DNA from: a virus
Lineage: Duplodnaviria > Heunggongvirae > Uroviricota > Caudoviricetes
DNA: 46,908 nucleotides
Reading direction: 5' to 3' (one strand)
IMG/VR virus record: IMGVR_UViG_3300008255_000105
The notes under the pieces were generated by a model. It saw only the letters and a list, made by a program, of their open reading frames with translations. It had not been told where the DNA came from and did no database searches. The position numbers and the translations under genes are program-made. This document shows, in pieces, positions 1,222 to 30,747 of this stretch (position 1 is the first letter of the stretch; every line of letters begins with the position of its first letter).

Positions 1222-1866
1222 TCAAAGAATAAAAAAATCTTCTTTTAGTTCTTTTGGTTGTAATTTTTTGATTCGTCGGTTAAATTCTGATTCTGACAAC
1301 GACTTCCCATTGACCCACCATTCTTTTAAGCCATCAGCTTCTTCAATGGCTGGACCATTAAGGCGATGGCGTTGACCGTTGACCCACCAAGATTTTGACC
1401 CATCAGGCCATTCTCTTGCTGGCCCGTCTTCTCTGTGACGTTTCCCTTCGAAGAACCATTCTTTTGTTCCGTTGGCATTTTCAACGGCTGGCCCATCTGT
1501 TCGATGAAGTTGACCGTTGACCCACCAAGATTTTAAACCATCAGCCCATTCAATTGCTGGGCCATCAAGGCGATGGCGTTGGTCGTTTTGGAACCAAAAT
1601 TTTGTTCCGTCCAACCTTTCAATAGCTGGCCCGTCAAGGCGATGGCGTTTACCGTTGACCCACCATTGTTTTGACCCATCAGCTTTTTCAACGGCTGGCC
1701 CATCTTCTCGATGAAGTTTACCATTTTGGAGCCAAAATTTTGTCCCATCATCTTTTTCAACGGCTGGCCCATCTTCTCTGTGAAGTTGACCGTTAAACCG
1801 CCATTCTTTTGAGCCGTCGTCATCTACATAAGCAACAGGAATTGGATCAACCAATTTATTCTCCAT
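1222..1866 (-). CDS. HRxDGPA 23-aa tandem-repeat protein (7 units)
   Basis: Repeats of LHR(E/L)DGPA(V/I)ExxDGxKxWxxNG. Confidence 0.85.
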   Translation of the reverse strand: MENKLVDPIPVAYVDDDGSKEWRFNGQLHREDGPAVEKDDGTKFWLQNGKLHREDGPAVEKADGSKQWWVNGKRHRLDGPAIERLDGTKFWFQNDQRHRLDGPAIEWADGLKSWWVNGQLHRTDGPAVENANGTKEWFFEGKRHREDGPAREWPDGSKSWWVNGQRHRLNGPAIEEADGLKEWWVNGKSLSESEFNRRIKKLQPKELKEDFFIL

Positions 1867-8304: not shown

Positions 8305-8312
8305 TTTTAAAA

Positions 8313-8435
8313 TTTGCGAGAATTATCGAAAACTGGGTTTTTGGTTTCTACTGGAATCGAACCAGTAACATATTGATTAATAGTCAATTGATCTACCTTT
8401 GATCTAAGAAGTAACAGTTTTCTCGACTACGCAAA
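8313..8435 (-). ncRNA. Scaffold-family element copy A, enclosing a tRNA-like body
   Basis: TTTGCG/CGCAAA terminal stem, GAAAACTG/CAGTTTTC inner stem, GTAGTC-N11-TACTTC. Confidence 0.6.
8342..8413 (-). tRNA. Degenerate tRNA-Asn(ATT)-like element
   Basis: Intact D arm, anticodon arm ATTGA-CT ATT AA-TCAAT and T arm ACTGG-TTCGATT-CCAGT; outer 3 acceptor pairs mismatched (TACTTCT/AGAAACC). Confidence 0.6.
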
Positions 8436-8451
8436 ATCTTTTCAATAAATT

Positions 8452-13018: not shown

Positions 13019-13098
13019 AATTATTCCAAATTGAATAAATGAGTATAACAAATTGGACTTTTTAACGCTGGATTCGCTAATTTTTTCAAAATATTTTC

Positions 13099-13154
13099 GT
13101 GAGAATAATCAACATGAGTGATTTGTCAAGAAGTAACTCCCATTTTGACTTCAC
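13099..13154 (-). ncRNA. Scaffold-family copy B
   Basis: GTGA/TCAC ends, GAGT/ACTC inner stem, GAAGTC-N11-TACTTC. Confidence 0.65.
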
Positions 13155-13171
13155 AAAAAATCTCAATTCTA

Positions 13172-13247
13172 TGCCCCTGGCAGGAATCGAACCTGCGGCC
13201 CCGACGCTTAAAAGGCGTGTGCTCTAATCCAACTGAGCTACAGAGGC
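13172..13247 (-). tRNA. tRNA-Lys(TTT)
   Basis: GCCTCTG/CAGGGGC acceptor, loop CT TTT AA. Confidence 0.9.
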
Positions 13248-13266
13248 GAGTGTTTTCTCAATTCTA

Positions 13267-13341
13267 TGCCCCCGGCAGGAATCGAACCTGCGACCTAACG
13301 CTTAAGAGGCGTGTGCTCTAATCCAACTGAGCTACAAGGGC
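13267..13341 (-). tRNA. tRNA-Lys(CTT)
   Basis: GCCCTTG/CGGGGGC acceptor, loop CT CTT AA; near-duplicate of the neighbour. Confidence 0.9.
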
Positions 13342-13353
13342 GAAATTAATTCC

Positions 13354-13426
13354 TGCGAGAATAATCACAAACAGAGTTTTTGTTTTTTCACCTAAAGAAA
13401 GAAGTATCTGTTCACTTGACTTCGCA
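13354..13426 (-). ncRNA. Scaffold-family copy C
   Basis: TGCGA/TCGCA ends, AACAGA/TCTGTT inner stem, GAAGTC-N11-TACTTC. Confidence 0.65.
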
Positions 13427-13448
13427 AAAACATTTCTAAAATTGATAA

Positions 13449-13530
13449 TTCTGAGAATAAGCAACAGGAGGGGGAGCGAATCATTTATTGGTTTGAAATA
13501 TCAGAAGTATCTCCTATTTTGACTTCAGAA
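13449..13530 (-). ncRNA. Scaffold-family copy D
   Basis: TTCTGA/TCAGAA ends, AGGAG/CTCCT inner stem, GAAGTC-N11-TACTTC. Confidence 0.65.
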
Positions 13531-13531
13531 A

Positions 13532-13601
13532 TAGCCGAAAATGGGTTTGAGCCACTATCTCCCAACGATCTGCTGGGTGATCTTCTTTGATCTATTCGGC
13601 C
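13532..13601 (-). ncRNA. tRNA-like cloverleaf with non-canonical loops (nominal anticodon GAT)
   Basis: GGCCGAA-TA-GATC AAAGAA GATC-A-CCCAG CAGATCG TTGGG-AGAT-AGTGG CTCAAAC CCATT-TTCGGCT-A. Confidence 0.6.
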
Positions 13602-13629
13602 GTGTGGTGGTTGTTTGCTTTTATGGTTC

Positions 13630-13850
13630 AATGAGCTTTTTCCATCTTTTGCATTGCCGCTCATTTTACAAGGCTTCCACCAAGCCTCTCTCGCCTAACG
13701 GTTGTATGCGAGAGCCTCCGCAATCTTCGCTAGATGATCTTTGTGAGCAACATGGGGCATTGTTAACATCTTTAAAAAGTACAAGTCCTTTCGACATTTC
13801 TTTGACCTATACTCCCAATGCCATGTAATCATCCCCAGCTTCTAGGGGCA
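13630..13850 (-). ncRNA. Candidate multi-hairpin RNA
   Basis: Stems 13630-13665, 13671-13687, 13688-13714, about 13751-13825, 13833-13848; no credible ORF on the transcribed strand. Confidence 0.45.
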
Positions 13851-13881
13851 AAGATTTATGCAATGCTGGAATCAATCTAAA

Positions 13882-14103
13882 AACCCGAGAACAATTGGTA
13901 TGAGCAGGATTTTAGGACTTCCTTAAAACTAGTTCGTATGGTGAACCAGACCGGGAAACATTTTAACGTCTTGACCTTGACGGTTGTTTTTTAGTGCAAC
14001 ACCACTGATAGGTTTTCATTTTAAGTCGCCCTATCAGTGCGACGCCAATCACAGAGTCCATTGAAGTTAATTTTGAAGTAACTCACATCTGCGACTTCGG
14101 GTT
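13882..14103 (-). ncRNA. Scaffold-family copy F with large multibranch cargo
   Basis: AACCCGA/TCGGGTT ends, TGAG/CTCA inner stem, GAAGTC-N12-TACTTC. Confidence 0.6.
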
Positions 14104-14245
14104 CTTACATTCTTTTTGTTTTCAAGGTTCTTGAGTCTGTCTTTCGCTTTCGACCTTTTTATTTTTCGACCTAGCTAAAAGCAACAACTCAAAATGCGAT
14201 TTCTCACTCAAACAAATCTTTTCGTTTTGGTCAAATTTTATAAAA

Positions 14246-14311
14246 ACCGAGAATTAGCAGCAAGGGGGATTTTTTCATTAATAGTGAAGTATCCCTCACC
14301 TAGACTTCGGT
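14246..14311 (-). ncRNA. Scaffold-family copy E
   Basis: ACCGA/TCGGT ends, GGGAT/ATCCC inner stem, GAAGTC-N11-TACTTC; starts 7 nt after TATAAT. Confidence 0.65.
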
Positions 14312-14317
14312 ATTTTA

Positions 14318-25801: not shown

Positions 25802-26836
25802 CTAGATACCCACAGAATCTTTTACTTTCTTCATCAAAACAGAAATTTCAGCACCGACTCCTAATTCTGATTTAAAAATTAAATCATCTAGATCAGAATC
25901 AGAATATTTAGATAGTTCCAAATATCTCTCTCTTTGTTCTTTAAAGAAAAATAAAAATTTTTCAAATAATAATTGCTTACTTTCCATATACCCTATTTCT
26001 CCATTAAAATAAAGTTTTTCTAGATCATTTATTTCAGAGCTATTTGAAAATAATCTATGTAAAGAAAAAATTGTACAATTAGATGGTTTCAATGATTGGC
26101 CTTTTGGAGTCCCGTCTGTTTTTATTTGTTTTATTTTTGTCATCAAAGATTTTTCAGTCTCAAAAATACCTAAATAATTATTATAACTTTTAGACATTTT
26201 TTGTCCATCAGTTCCTGGTATTTTTTCTGCTCCTAAAATAATTTTTGGATCTGGAATTTTCAAAACATTCCCATATTTTGAATTAAATCTAGTAGCTAAT
26301 TCTCTTGCTATTTGAATATGTTGCAATTGATCTTCTCCGACAGGAACAGAATCTGCTGAGATTGAGAGAATATCTGCTGCCATTAAAACTGGATAACAAA
26401 AAGTACCGACATTGATTGTTACTCCGACATTTGCAGCTTCATTAAACTTACCTCGATTTTGGAGTTCTTTTCTTTTATTGTCAGCTTCAAATTCTGCTGC
26501 TTTATAAGCATGTGATCTTAAAAGAGTTCCCATAGGGACAACACAAGACAAAATCCAAGATAATTCACAAATTTCTGGGAATTTACTTTGTCGATAAATA
26601 TGACAAGATTCTGGATCTACTCCTAATGATAAATATTGAATTATCAATTCATGAATGTTATTAGAAATTTCTATTTTGTTATTTAATGTTGTTAAAGCAT
26701 GTAAATCAGCTATAAAAATATAAACATCATCTGATTCGTCTTGATTTATAATTATTGGATTTATTGAAGAAAAATAATTACCTAAATGTAAAAAGTTGCT
26801 CGTTGGCTTAACCCCTGTCATCATTCTCATTTTCAT
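25802..26836 (-). CDS. trpS: Tryptophanyl-tRNA synthetase
   Basis: MTGVKPT, LHLGNY, IADLHALT, YPVLMAADIL, VPVGEDQLQH, KMSKS. Confidence 0.95.
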   Translation of the reverse strand: MKMRMMTGVKPTSNFLHLGNYFSSINPIIINQDESDDVYIFIADLHALTTLNNKIEISNNIHELIIQYLSLGVDPESCHIYRQSKFPEICELSWILSCVVPMGTLLRSHAYKAAEFEADNKRKELQNRGKFNEAANVGVTINVGTFCYPVLMAADILSISADSVPVGEDQLQHIQIARELATRFNSKYGNVLKIPDPKIILGAEKIPGTDGQKMSKSYNNYLGIFETEKSLMTKIKQIKTDGTPKGQSLKPSNCTIFSLHRLFSNSSEINDLEKLYFNGEIGYMESKQLLFEKFLFFFKEQRERYLELSKYSDSDLDDLIFKSELGVGAEISVLMKKVKDSVGI

Positions 26837-27275: not shown

Positions 27276-29174
27276 TCATTCCCCTGTAAAATTCCCCTCG
27301 GGTATATTTAAGCCGGTTTTGCACCTTTTGTTAAATTCTTCTTCTGAAAGTTGTTTGCCATTGATCCACCATTCTTTTGATCCGTCGGCAAATTCAATTG
27401 CTGGCCCGTCTTCTCGATGGAGTTGACCGTTTTGCCACCATTCTTTTGTCCCATTTGCCCATTCAATAGCAGGCCCATCTTCTCGATGAAGTTTGCCATT
27501 TTGGAGCCATTGTTTTGTTCCATTTGCAGATTCAATTGCTGGGCCATCAAGGCGATGGCGTTTGCCATTTTGGAACCATTCTTTTGAACCATCGGCTCGT
27601 TCTTTTGCTGGGCCATCAAGGCGGTGAAGCTGTCCATTTTGCCACCAATGTTTTGAACCATTGGCAAATTCAACGGCTGGGCCATCAAGGCGATGAAGCT
27701 GATCATTGACCCACCATTCTTTTGTCCCATTTGCCCATTCAATAGCAGGCCCATCTTCTCGATGAAGTTTGCCATTTTGGAACCATTCTTTTGTCCCATC
27801 GGCTCGTTCTTTTGCTGGGCCATCTTCTCGATGAAGCAAGCCGTTCAATCGCCATTCTTTTGTCCCATCTTCAAAGGTTTTAAGAGTTGATTTTTCTTTT
27901 GGTCCTTTTGATGGTAATTGTTCGGTTCTTTTTTTAAATTCTTCTTCTGAAAGTTGTTTCCCATGGATAAACCAATATTTATTTCCGCTGATCACTTCAA
28001 TTGCTGACCCATCTTCTCGGTGAAGTTGGCCATTTTGGAACCATTCTTTTAAGCCGTCGGCTTTTTCAACGGCTGGGCCATCAAGGCGATGAAGTTTGCC
28101 ATTTTGTAACCATTCTTTTGAGCCGTCGGCCATTTCAATTGCTGGGCCATCAAGGCGATGAAGCTGGCCATTTTGCCACCATTCTTTTAAGCCATTGTCT
28201 CGTTCAATTGCTGGTCCATCAAGGCGATGAAGTTTGCCATTTTGGAACCATTCTTTTGAGCCGTCGGCCATTTCAATTGCTGGGCCATCAAGGCGATGAA
28301 GTTGACCGTTTTGCCACCAAAATTTTGCCCCGTCGGCAAATTCAACGGCTGGCCCGTCTTCTCGATGGAGTTGACCGTTTTGCCACCATTCTTTTGTCCC
28401 ATCGGCTCGTTCTCTTGCTGGTCCATCAAGGCGATGAAGTTTGCCATTTTGGAACCATTCTTTTGACCCATCGGCAAATTCAATTGCTGGCCCATCTTCT
28501 CGATGAGGTTGACCATTGATGAACCATTTTTTGAACCATTTTTTTGGCCCATTAGGAATTTGAACTATAGTAAAACGTTCTCTTTCATTTGTCTCTTCGT
28601 GGCCGTGGCTGTGCTCTTCGGGGCCGTGGCCGTGGCTGTGCTCTTCGGGGCCGTGGCCGTGGCTGTGCTCTTCGGGGCCGTGGCCGTGGCTGTGCTCTTC
28701 GGGGCTGTGTTCTTCGGGGCCGTGGCTGTGTTCTTCGGGGCCGTGGCCGTGGCTGTGCTCTTCGGGGTTGTGACCGTGCTCTTCTTGGCCGTGCTTGTGT
28801 GCGGCGTCGTGCAATTCCTCCCAAGCTTCTTCAATCTCGTTTATTTTCATCACAGTAAATTCATGTGAAAGGATAAGATAATCACCGAAATCTTCATCAT
28901 AAACGACGACTGCTACTTCTTGTGGGGGACCGAAATCAATAATTTGTTGTGCCAAAACAAGAGAAGCACTGAGGTGTTCTTTTTCATCTTCACAATTCAC
29001 GGGAACAATTGATTGCATCATACCGTTTGCCAATGGTCCATTAGCAGACAAAAGATTCTTTTTGCCGAAAAACCATCGGTATCTGATCGCTACTTTTAGT
29101 TTTTGGTTTGTTTCAAATCCTGGTGTTCCACCATTAACCAAATTGCGAATATCCTCTGGATTGAAAACGCACAT
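27276..29174 (-). CDS. Multidomain protein: unknown N-domain, His-rich repeats, 15 HRxDGPA repeats in two blocks (8+7)
   Basis: ATG 29174 with GAGGAG RBS; repeats counted in the translation. Confidence 0.85.
   Translation of the reverse strand: MCVFNPEDIRNLVNGGTPGFETNQKLKVAIRYRWFFGKKNLLSANGPLANGMMQSIVPVNCEDEKEHLSASLVLAQQIIDFGPPQEVAVVVYDEDFGDYLILSHEFTVMKINEIEEAWEELHDAAHKHGQEEHGHNPEEHSHGHGPEEHSHGPEEHSPEEHSHGHGPEEHSHGHGPEEHSHGHGPEEHSHGHEETNERERFTIVQIPNGPKKWFKKWFINGQPHREDGPAIEFADGSKEWFQNGKLHRLDGPARERADGTKEWWQNGQLHREDGPAVEFADGAKFWWQNGQLHRLDGPAIEMADGSKEWFQNGKLHRLDGPAIERDNGLKEWWQNGQLHRLDGPAIEMADGSKEWLQNGKLHRLDGPAVEKADGLKEWFQNGQLHREDGSAIEVISGNKYWFIHGKQLSEEEFKKRTEQLPSKGPKEKSTLKTFEDGTKEWRLNGLLHREDGPAKERADGTKEWFQNGKLHREDGPAIEWANGTKEWWVNDQLHRLDGPAVEFANGSKHWWQNGQLHRLDGPAKERADGSKEWFQNGKRHRLDGPAIESANGTKQWLQNGKLHREDGPAIEWANGTKEWWQNGQLHREDGPAIEFADGSKEWWINGKQLSEEEFNKRCKTGLNIPEGNFTGE
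28595..28800 (-). repeat. 27-bp tandem repeat encoding (HGPEEHSHG)n
   Basis: GGCCGTGGCTGTGCTCTTCGG units on the + strand. Confidence 0.9.
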
Positions 29175-29241
29175 TTTCGTCACTCCTCGCAGGTATCTTA
29201 GCTCGAAGCTAAGAATAGCACACAGAGACGGGAGAGCAGAG

Positions 29242-30747
29242 ATGGAAGTAAACAAAATCCAAAAGAGAAAACTTAATATTCTATCACAGAATGAACCTGA
29301 TTTAAGTCAGTACAGAACAACTGTTGAACAGGCTAAAGATCTTAAAGATAAAAATACAGGCATAGATGTAACACCAGATATGTTAAGAGATTTTGGCCCT
29401 TCTCAATATCCTCCATACAATCCTGTTGTTAACCCAGAAGATCCTAAAGATGAACCTGGAAAAGCTTATGAAGAATCAATGACACAAGAAAACCAAGATC
29501 AACAAGCAGCTAATGCTGCTTTAGCTGATTTAGGGACATCTGTGGTTGATATGATAGTAACTTTTTCTGGAAGTGAACAAGCCCCAGAAGGATCTGTTGC
29601 AGCCGGTGAAACACAAGGTTTAGTTAAACTCATTTATAACTATTTTGGTGATCTTGTTAAAGAGAAAAGGAATCAATTTGATGTATCTAAAAAAGAAAAG
29701 GCAGAATTAGAACCATACACAGACCCAAGAGAATTTTATATGAAAAGACACACACCAGATTTTGGAACTGGTGCTGCTGGTGCTGGTGCTGCTGCTGGGC
29801 AAGTTGTTGGGAGGGGGATGCAAGGTGGAGACCAAAAAATAGGTCCAGCCCATCAATCAACAGGCAACCCCTTTACCAAACAAAATCTTCACGACACCAT
29901 TTTCTCAACACCAGGAGCACTTGAAAAAGCAATAACAGAATGGTTGAAAGATTGGCATCAACGAGGTGGTGGTGCAGACAACTTTTCACTAAAAGATCCT
30001 ATTAAATATAGTCCTCTTGTTCCATATACAAAACAACAAGAAAGACAAGTTGAAGAGGTTCTTAAAAATATGCCACTTGCTTTTCGTGAACATTATAGAC
30101 ATTTTGTGAATGGAGTTAAATCACCAAGTCAAATGGGAGAACCCGGAACGGTTGACTATAACAATTGGTTATATCCACAATATGCATATCGATCTAATCC
30201 CTGGGAAAGATATCTTGTAGCAGGTGGCAGAGTCCAAGGTTTGCCGGAAGACTGGAATATTGCCGGGAGTCAAATTGCAAGAACTGCACTTGGAGATTAT
30301 TGGCGTCCAGCTAACAGTATGGCCGCTGTTAGAAGACAATATGACAAAATGTATAACCTTGAAACTCCACATTTTAACCCCATCGGATTTAGATGTTTAA
30401 TGTGGATGTTCAATTATTGGAAAGAAAAATATTTAAATGAATATGGTGGTACAAAAATAACAGCGTCTAACCTTCCGAGTGATGTTCCTTCTATTGATCA
30501 AGCTGATCGATACTACAATTCAATTTTATGTCAAGCACAAAGAGAGTTGGGGTTCACATTGGCAAGTTTATTGAAAACAGCAGTTGTTAGAATGGCCCCA
30601 CTGATTTATAGAAGGATGGCTCAAATAGCGTTTAGACAAGGTTTACCAATTGGTTTCGGACTTGGCATCGGTGCTGGATACGCATCAGGAAGGCTTCCAA
30701 GCCCTGCCCCCGAACTGATGGTTGCTCCGCCACCTACAACGCCTTAA
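29242..30747 (+). CDS. Hypothetical protein
   Basis: ATG 29242 with GGGAG RBS (track start 29062 overlaps the divergent gene). Confidence 0.75.
   Translation: MEVNKIQKRKLNILSQNEPDLSQYRTTVEQAKDLKDKNTGIDVTPDMLRDFGPSQYPPYNPVVNPEDPKDEPGKAYEESMTQENQDQQAANAALADLGTSVVDMIVTFSGSEQAPEGSVAAGETQGLVKLIYNYFGDLVKEKRNQFDVSKKEKAELEPYTDPREFYMKRHTPDFGTGAAGAGAAAGQVVGRGMQGGDQKIGPAHQSTGNPFTKQNLHDTIFSTPGALEKAITEWLKDWHQRGGGADNFSLKDPIKYSPLVPYTKQQERQVEEVLKNMPLAFREHYRHFVNGVKSPSQMGEPGTVDYNNWLYPQYAYRSNPWERYLVAGGRVQGLPEDWNIAGSQIARTALGDYWRPANSMAAVRRQYDKMYNLETPHFNPIGFRCLMWMFNYWKEKYLNEYGGTKITASNLPSDVPSIDQADRYYNSILCQAQRELGFTLASLLKTAVVRMAPLIYRRMAQIAFRQGLPIGFGLGIGAGYASGRLPSPAPELMVAPPPTTP

What the first reader, a model, noticed from the sequence alone, without database searches (positions are those of the whole stretch)
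8342..8413. A tRNA-Asn(ATT)-like body grafted in as the cargo of scaffold copy A
D, anticodon and T arms are intact, but the 5' acceptor strand is the scaffold's conserved UACUUCU, so only 4 of 7 acceptor pairs form. The anticodon is ATT (A34) rather than the usual GTT for bacterial Asn. Inference: the element is unlikely to be chargeable and may be a decoy for anticodon nucleases or tRNA-sensing defences, or a display of a tRNA elbow. Alternatively the whole scaffold family arose from tRNA flanks. Large phage RNAs such as GOLLD are reported to sit near or embed tRNAs, but this scaffold is far smaller.
Basis: partly seen in the sequence, partly recalled or inferred. Interest (0 to 1): 0.72.

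Follow-up and report, generated by a model that had tools for sequence, protein, structure and literature searches.

The report
Ro60-partner RNA with acceptor-less tRNA head
This is most likely not a broken tRNA but a recurring small RNA of large phages: a tRNA-shaped head that cannot carry an amino acid, on a conserved "handle" that in other phages and some bacteria sits beside the gene for the RNA-binding ring protein Ro60, although no such gene was found in the part of this phage that could be read.

Summary
Observation confirmed: D, anticodon (ATT) and T arms are intact, and only 4 of 7 acceptor pairs form, using the scaffold's UUC.

It is not a one-off graft or a decaying pseudogene. I found 37 distinct RNAs of this build in other large phages and two Prevotella-binned contigs. 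They keep a 3-5 bp acceptor stub (pair 7:66 G-C 25, U-A 11) and covarying arms, but carry 19 different anticodons and almost never a CCA.

The scaffold is a Ro60-linked handle. A handle-only model gave 155 hits in 74 of 96 Ro60 loci, all on the Ro60 strand, against 1 hit in 100 control loci. The same handle also carries YrlA-like permuted tRNAs, whole tRNA bodies or no cargo.

Best reading: a Y-RNA-like Ro60 partner that displays a non-chargeable tRNA shape. ATT is incidental. Binding and expression are untested. No Ro60 was found in about 155 kb read of this phage (at least 225 kb), whereas relatives keep it within about 14 kb.

The scan found this handle family before on other DNA (e1-5364018, e1-5364033).

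The parts
8311..8437 (-). Copy A: whole predicted RNA (about 125 nt), handle plus acceptor-stub tRNA head
   Evidence: (48.8 bits with handle-only model); intergenic
8425..8435 (-). 5' strand of the terminal helix and conserved GUAGUC (GAAGUC in the five sister copies); candidate Ro60-binding strand
   Evidence: Sequence; terminal helix paired in 101 of 105 cells across 15 homologues, register chosen for pairing; motif likeness to GNCGAAN0-1G from PMC4201824 is partial
8415..8422 (-). Second handle helix, 5' strand (pairs with 8328-8335)
   Evidence: Pair probabilities 0.67-0.98; varies in sequence but stays paired in homologues
8408..8414 (-). Near-invariant UUACUUC of the handle; its last three bases double as acceptor positions 4-6
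   Evidence: Invariant columns in A1, A4, A5
8407..8410 (-). Acceptor stub 5' strand (tRNA positions 4-7); pairs with 8346-8349
   Evidence: alignment; 3-5 bp stub in 35 of 37 homologues, pair 7:66 G-C 25 / U-A 11
8390..8404 (-). D arm
   Evidence: 98% of cells paired, 3 pairs with two-sided change
8372..8388 (-). Anticodon arm; ATT triplet at 8379-8381
   Evidence: all 5 pairs change on both sides across homologues; triplet not conserved
8350..8366 (-). T arm with canonical loop
   Evidence: 100% of cells paired
8342..8349 (-). Stub 3' strand followed by ACCA (internal; not conserved, probably chance)
   Evidence: CCA within 1 nt of the stub end in only 2 of 37
8313..8335 (-). 3' strands of the handle: second helix, internal loop, conserved UUCUC and terminal helix
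8230..8305 (-). tRNA-Gly(TCC) starting about 8 nt downstream; its 5' processing would set the 3' end of copy A (inferred)
13094..13159 (-). Sister handle copy without tRNA cargo, directly after tRNA-Lys(TTT)
13350..13430 (-). Sister handle copy without tRNA cargo, directly before tRNA-Lys(CTT)
13446..13533 (-). Sister handle copy with short cargo
13880..14105 (-). Sister handle copy with 183-nt non-tRNA cargo
14242..14315 (-). Sister handle copy with short cargo

Best explanation
Copy A is a Y-RNA-like partner RNA of a phage/Bacteroidota branch of Ro60. It is transcribed with neighbouring tRNAs and trimmed at tRNA-Gly (inferred). Its 5' and 3' ends pair into a two-helix handle (shown by covariation) that Ro60 binds (inferred from gene neighbourhood). 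At the far end it presents an unpermuted D-anticodon-T tRNA body closed by a 4-bp stub in place of an acceptor stem (shown by covariation). With no free 3' end, no conserved CCA and no conserved anticodon it neither charges nor decodes (inferred). The head most likely works by shape, as the effector module that ties the Ro60 particle to a host factor that handles tRNA-like or structured RNA (PNPase as in Deinococcus and Thermus phage phiLo, or tRNA cleavage/repair enzymes), helping the phage protect its RNAs. In this phage the Ro60 is either in the unread part of the genome or supplied by the host.
For: A DNA pattern for scaffold plus tRNA, blind to Ro60, hit 2 viral contigs; both encode TROVE proteins over the Pfam cut-off, and the branch's profile matches solved Ro60 structures 9KOP, 1YVP, 9NEN. 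Of 20 metagenome hits, 17 are real by inspection and 12 have Ro60 in the fetched stretch. The 5' handle motif occurs 23 times on the Ro60 strand within -3.5/+1 kb, 0 on the other strand, 0.65 in shuffles. Handle-only model: 155 hits in 74 of 96 Ro60 loci, all on the Ro60 strand, 1 hit in 100 control loci; in whole-record searches of 10 phages every hit lay within about 14 kb of Ro60. The handle also carries T-closed acceptor-D permuted heads, the YrlA topology (weak Rfam YrlA match, 18.4 bits), and cargo-less copies lie just upstream of Ro60 in Lewinella and Neolewinella. Head: 95.9% of cells paired, 13 of 18 pairs with two-sided change; 15:48 complementary in 28 of 37; 19 anticodons, four of them complementary to stop codons. 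Known Y RNAs are modular, tRNA-mimicking and tRNA-co-transcribed (PMC4201824); a phage Ro60 with its RNAs binds and dampens host PNPase (PMC12135203).
Against: No Ro60 in about 155 kb of this phage, including about 49 kb on one side of copy A and about 100 kb beyond the cluster on the other, unlike every relative with enough context. Copy A has CGUAG, not the CGAA motif shown to matter for phiRo60 binding (PMC12135203); only 3 of the 6 window copies have CGAA. The handle model does not detect the known YrlA locus of phage Bxz1 and Rfam YrlA does not hit copy A. No expression, binding or processing data. The effector partner is borrowed from other systems. Homologues are related to each other, so covariation counts overstate independent events.
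Confidence: 0.68

Rival explanations
1. The head is a shape-level decoy or bait for host anticodon nucleases or tRNA-sensing defences. The handle (with or without Ro60) only stabilises it, and the anticodon changes as part of an arms race.
For: The anticodon arm is kept as a proper arm although the triplet is free: 5/5 stem pairs in 33 of 37, U33 in 33 of 35, purine 37 in 33 of 35. Close relatives differ in the triplet (L237 GCT vs L239 GAT; L145 TAT vs L242 TTT). This phage carries much tRNA-upkeep gear (TrpRS-like ORF, HisRS, PolyA_pol/CCA-type enzyme, Thg1, 2H phosphoesterase).
Against: Many triplets match no normal substrate (ATT, ATC, AGA, AGG, TTA, TCA). One copy per genome is a poor sponge unless highly expressed. 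Sister heads on the same handle lack an anticodon loop altogether (permuted type). Neutral drift explains the variation equally well.
Confidence: 0.17
2. Orphan relic: this phage lost Ro60, and the six handle RNAs, copy A included, are leftovers without current function.
For: No Ro60 in about 155 kb read. The window has no permuted or full-acceptor copy, which most relatives have. Copy A's stub is not favoured by folding energy alone.
Against: All six copies keep both handle helices despite very different sequences. Copy A keeps every arm pair, with two-sided changes relative to the family consensus at 7:66 and 11:24. About 70 kb are unread.
Confidence: 0.1
3. A real tRNA-Asn(ATT), or a decaying tRNA pseudogene that landed in a scaffold by chance.
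For: Strong tRNA covariance score (51.9 bits); an internal ACCA follows the stub; one full-acceptor relative (L139) also has ATT.
Against: Only 4 acceptor pairs; the same truncation recurs in 35 of 37 homologues; CCA in 2 of 37; triplet unconstrained. Free-standing tRNAs in these loci have A34 in 38 of 987, mostly Arg(ACG).
Confidence: 0.05

Closest known systems
Deinococcus radiodurans Yrn1 Y RNA (Chen et al. 2014, PMC4201824)
   Same: Terminal stem from 5'/3' pairing; tRNA-like head whose D/T orientation differs from YrlA, with an anticodon-like arm between them; encoded among tRNA genes near Ro60 and made in a polycistron with a tRNA.
   Different: Yrn1 has no full D arm, a 6-nt 'anticodon' loop and no V region. 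Copy A has a complete D arm, a 7-nt loop with U33/A37 and a V region, on a handle of different sequence. No sequence or model comparison with Yrn1 could be run.
YrlA/YrlB Y RNAs (Rfam RF02553; PMC4201824; bioRxiv 10.1101/312249)
   Same: Ro60-adjacent, same strand, modular; cargo-less and tRNA-mimic forms side by side; sister RNAs on this handle have the YrlA permuted topology; a YUAY-like word follows the stem.
   Different: YrlA is permuted, has a closed acceptor stem and lacks the anticodon loop. Copy A is unpermuted, keeps the anticodon loop and lacks most of the acceptor stem. The handle consensus is N-G-U-A-G-U-(C/A), not GNCGAAN0-1G; no cross-detection in either direction.
Thermus phage phiLo Ro60 with Yrl1/Yrl2 (PMC12135203)
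   Same: Phage-encoded Ro60 with stem-bulge-stem RNAs next to the gene; suggests the mechanism (capture of host PNPase).
   Different: Those RNAs carry CGAA and are not described as tRNA mimics; the Ro60 is a distant branch (E 4e-11 to this branch's profile).

Membership tests
tRNA (RF00005), functional | D, anticodon and T arms with conserved loop residues | tested here: met
tRNA (RF00005), functional | 7-bp acceptor stem with free 3' end for CCA | tested here: not met
   4 of 7 pairs; 3' side continues into the handle; ARAGORN no call; 3-5 bp in 35 of 37 homologues
tRNA (RF00005), functional | Anticodon conserved among orthologues | tested here: not met
   19 triplets among 35
YrlA (RF02553) | Circularly permuted T-acceptor-D head without anticodon loop | tested here: not met
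   Copy A is D-anticodon-T; no YrlA hit at E<=10. Met by sister RNAs in other phages
YrlA (RF02553) | GNCGAAN0-1G motif near the 5' end | tested here: not met
   Copy A reads UGCGUAG; three sister copies have CGAAG without the leading G at the consensus place
Y RNA in the broad sense (Ro60 partner) | Long stem from 5'/3' end pairing with an internal loop and a variable distal module | tested here: met
Y RNA in the broad sense (Ro60 partner) | Family encoded near Ro60 on the same strand | tested here: met
   (for the family as a whole)
Y RNA in the broad sense (Ro60 partner) | Ro60 gene in this genome | tested here: inconclusive
   Absent from about 155 kb of at least 225 kb, so not adjacent; rest unread
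Y RNA in the broad sense (Ro60 partner) | Bound and stabilised by Ro60; expressed as a discrete RNA | not testable with these tools
   Needs EMSA/co-IP and RNA-seq
GOLLD / large phage RNAs | Several-hundred-nt RNA matching the Rfam model | tested here: not met
   About 125 nt; no hit in Rfam scan of the window at E<=1

The most novel reading that the evidence does not exclude
This phage keeps six Ro60-type handle RNAs with no Ro60 gene of its own and uses them to capture or reprogram the host's Ro60; copy A then shows an acceptor-less tRNA head whose anticodon arm acts as exchangeable bait for tRNA-cutting defences.
Probability: 0.12. Interest if true: 0.8.

Novelty: new variant of a known kind. 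Interest (0 to 1): 0.52.

Why it matters
What the tRNA-like module of bacterial Y RNAs binds is still open (PMC4201824). Here one handle carries four interchangeable heads (none, acceptor-stub, whole tRNA body, permuted), which gives a natural swap series to test what each part of the tRNA shape is for. The stub type keeps the elbow and a well-formed anticodon arm while dropping charging and decoding, the mirror image of YrlA. In practice, tRNA finders call many of these heads tRNAs (17 ARAGORN calls in my loci), which inflates phage tRNA counts and invents odd anticodons such as Asn(ATT). I found no paper describing this handle or the stub subtype in six literature searches of the held library, and Rfam lacks it; most subscription journals were not searchable.

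Tried and rejected
A loose three-motif pattern scan of viral contigs returned only chance matches; these later served as the control set. A tighter short-cargo pattern gave one chance hit. No whole genome is held for the window and its contigs are not searchable by handle; two of its proteins had no relative among the viral contigs and the neighbouring 110-aa protein has no homologue, so no true orthologous locus from a close relative was available. One pair count used a mis-registered structure string and was redone. A promoter scan near copy A gave no more sites than shuffles. Cultured Vibrio phage pv27 and gut phage csAssE-Sib, with more distant Ro60s, showed no handle; the 635-kb phage LR745206 did. 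Hairpin-ribozyme and theta-ribozyme likeness was considered from memory and dropped: no matching core motifs by eye and no Rfam hit. Two Y RNA reviews were not held.

Full report
Setting. The window is part of a large uncultivated phage. Its proteins are found letter for letter on contigs of 114 kb and 110 kb that overlap the window's two halves, so the genome is at least about 225 kb. Genes and eight tRNAs lie mostly on the minus strand. That these are Crystal Geyser groundwater samples is my recollection of the sample numbers, not a tool result.

The observation. On the minus strand 8346-8410 matches the Rfam tRNA model at positions 4-67 with 51.9 bits; ARAGORN skips it. D, anticodon and T stems are complete, the triplet is ATT (8379-8381), and only acceptor positions 4-7 pair. 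The 5' strand is the scaffold word UACUUC plus one U. The body lies inside a two-helix scaffold, 8311-8437, with five sister copies at 13094-14315. A covariance model built from cargo-less copies only recognises copy A at 48.8 bits. One caveat: a secondary-structure ensemble gives the stub near-zero probability in this AU-rich copy.

Relatives. A pattern for scaffold plus tRNA, with no reference to any protein, found two other large phages and 20 metagenome stretches, 17 of them real on inspection. Both phages encode a TROVE protein above Pfam's cut-off; in one the element ends about 170 nt before the gene. Twelve of the metagenome stretches hold the same protein. A profile of this branch matches solved Ro60 structures of Thermus phage phiLo, Xenopus and human.

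Ro60 link. I fetched 97 loci of this Ro60 branch. In 63 of them the strict 5' motif occurs 23 times near the gene on its strand, never on the other strand, against 0.65 in shuffles. The handle model gives 155 hits in 74 of 96 loci, every one on the Ro60 strand, and 1 hit in 100 control loci that already contained the three short motifs by chance. In whole-record searches of ten phages all hits lay within about 14 kb of Ro60 (that search scores only the top 150 candidates per record). Cargo-less copies sit just upstream of Ro60 in Lewinella and Neolewinella genomes.

Four heads on one handle. The cargo is either absent, a whole tRNA body with a 7-bp acceptor stem, a permuted T-closed acceptor-D body, or the stub type of copy A. 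The permuted type is the YrlA topology described in PMC4201824 and bioRxiv 10.1101/312249, and one example gives a weak Rfam YrlA match (18.4 bits; the known Bxz1 locus gives 32.5). The handle model does not detect the Bxz1 locus, so this is a separate handle family, not YrlA itself.

The stub type. There are 37 distinct examples. The stub is 3-5 bp in 35; pair 7:66 is G-C in 25 and U-A in 11; the anticodon stem is 5/5 in 33; positions 15 and 48 are complementary in 28. On a 15-sequence alignment 95.9% of cells pair and 13 of 18 pairs change on both sides, above all 500 shuffles and all slid controls (related sequences inflate this). The triplet takes 19 values among 35, including A34 triplets and four complementary to stop codons, and differs between close relatives. 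U33 and a purine at 37 are each kept in 33 of 35. CCA follows the stub in only 2 of 37. So shape is selected and identity is not. ATT in copy A is one draw from a free triplet, and the ACCA after its stub is probably chance.

How it most likely works. Shown: the fold, its recurrence, the Ro60 neighbourhood of the family, the free anticodon. Inferred: co-transcription with tRNA-Gly about 8 nt downstream, whose processing would set the 3' end, as for Deinococcus Yrn2-tRNA-Yrn1 (PMC4201824); Ro60 binding to the handle; no charging, because there is no free 3' end and the acceptor-T helix is 9 bp, not 12 (RNase P's need for a 7-bp stem is stated in PMC4201824). Borrowed from other systems: the head as effector module for PNPase or tRNA cleavage/repair factors (PMC4201824, PMC12135203). 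I put this reading at 0.68. A shape-level decoy role (0.17) is not excluded, because the anticodon loop keeps its geometry.

The loose end. No Ro60 was found in about 155 kb of this phage, reaching about 49 kb to one side of copy A and about 100 kb past the cluster on the other (HMM searches, with the distant Bxz1 protein as positive control). About 70 kb are unread. The gene may lie there, the host may supply it, or the RNAs may be relics (0.10). The handle strand of copy A also lacks the CGAA word that matters for phiRo60 (PMC12135203), as do most members of this family.

Novelty. It works like a Y RNA with a tRNA-mimic head, closest in layout to Deinococcus Yrn1. It is not a member of YrlA and not a functional tRNA. 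Rfam has no model and six searches of the held literature found no description. This scan has already reported the handle family from a 294-kb freshwater phage (e1-5364018, e1-5364033); that phage is my locus L175, whose four copies are of the permuted, whole-body and empty types. I had reached the Y RNA reading before seeing those notes. Verdict: real, a new variant of a known kind, interest 0.52.

Noticed in passing
window 13532-13601 (-): tRNA-shaped RNA with a 7-bp acceptor stem but non-canonical T and anticodon loops, directly 5' of a handle copy. It shares copy A's unusual GAUC/GAUC D stem and flanking bases at the same tRNA positions; not called by ARAGORN or Rfam.
   Followed up: partly
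window 13880-14105 (-): Handle copy with a 183-nt structured non-tRNA cargo; no match in Rfam. A few relatives also carry long non-tRNA cargo (L171, L170, L234).
   Followed up: no
L266:3895-5481, L270:4589-5344, L258:2652-4010, window 25802-26836: The phage encodes a PolyA_pol/CCA-type nucleotidyltransferase, Thg1, HisRS, a TrpRS-like protein, IF3, peptide deformylase, PTH2 and a 2H phosphoesterase: an unusually full tRNA/translation upkeep set.
   Followed up: no
L138-L254: ARAGORN handle-borne heads ordinary tRNAs, so phage tRNA inventories include these RNAs under false identities.
   Followed up: partly
L141:2799 and 9738, L188:10017, L248:297, L237:4121: Partial copies with only the 5' handle motif followed by an anticodon-like arm and a T arm, apparently without the 3' handle strand; a possible fifth head type.
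   Followed up: no
L274:7494-7569 (LR745206.1, 635-kb phage): Cargo-less handle about 430 nt upstream of Ro60 in a megaphage (38.3 bits).
   Followed up: partly
window 1222-1866 and 27276-29255 (-): Two proteins built of 23-residue tandem repeats (69-bp period); contigs from two samples end near the second one.
   Followed up: no
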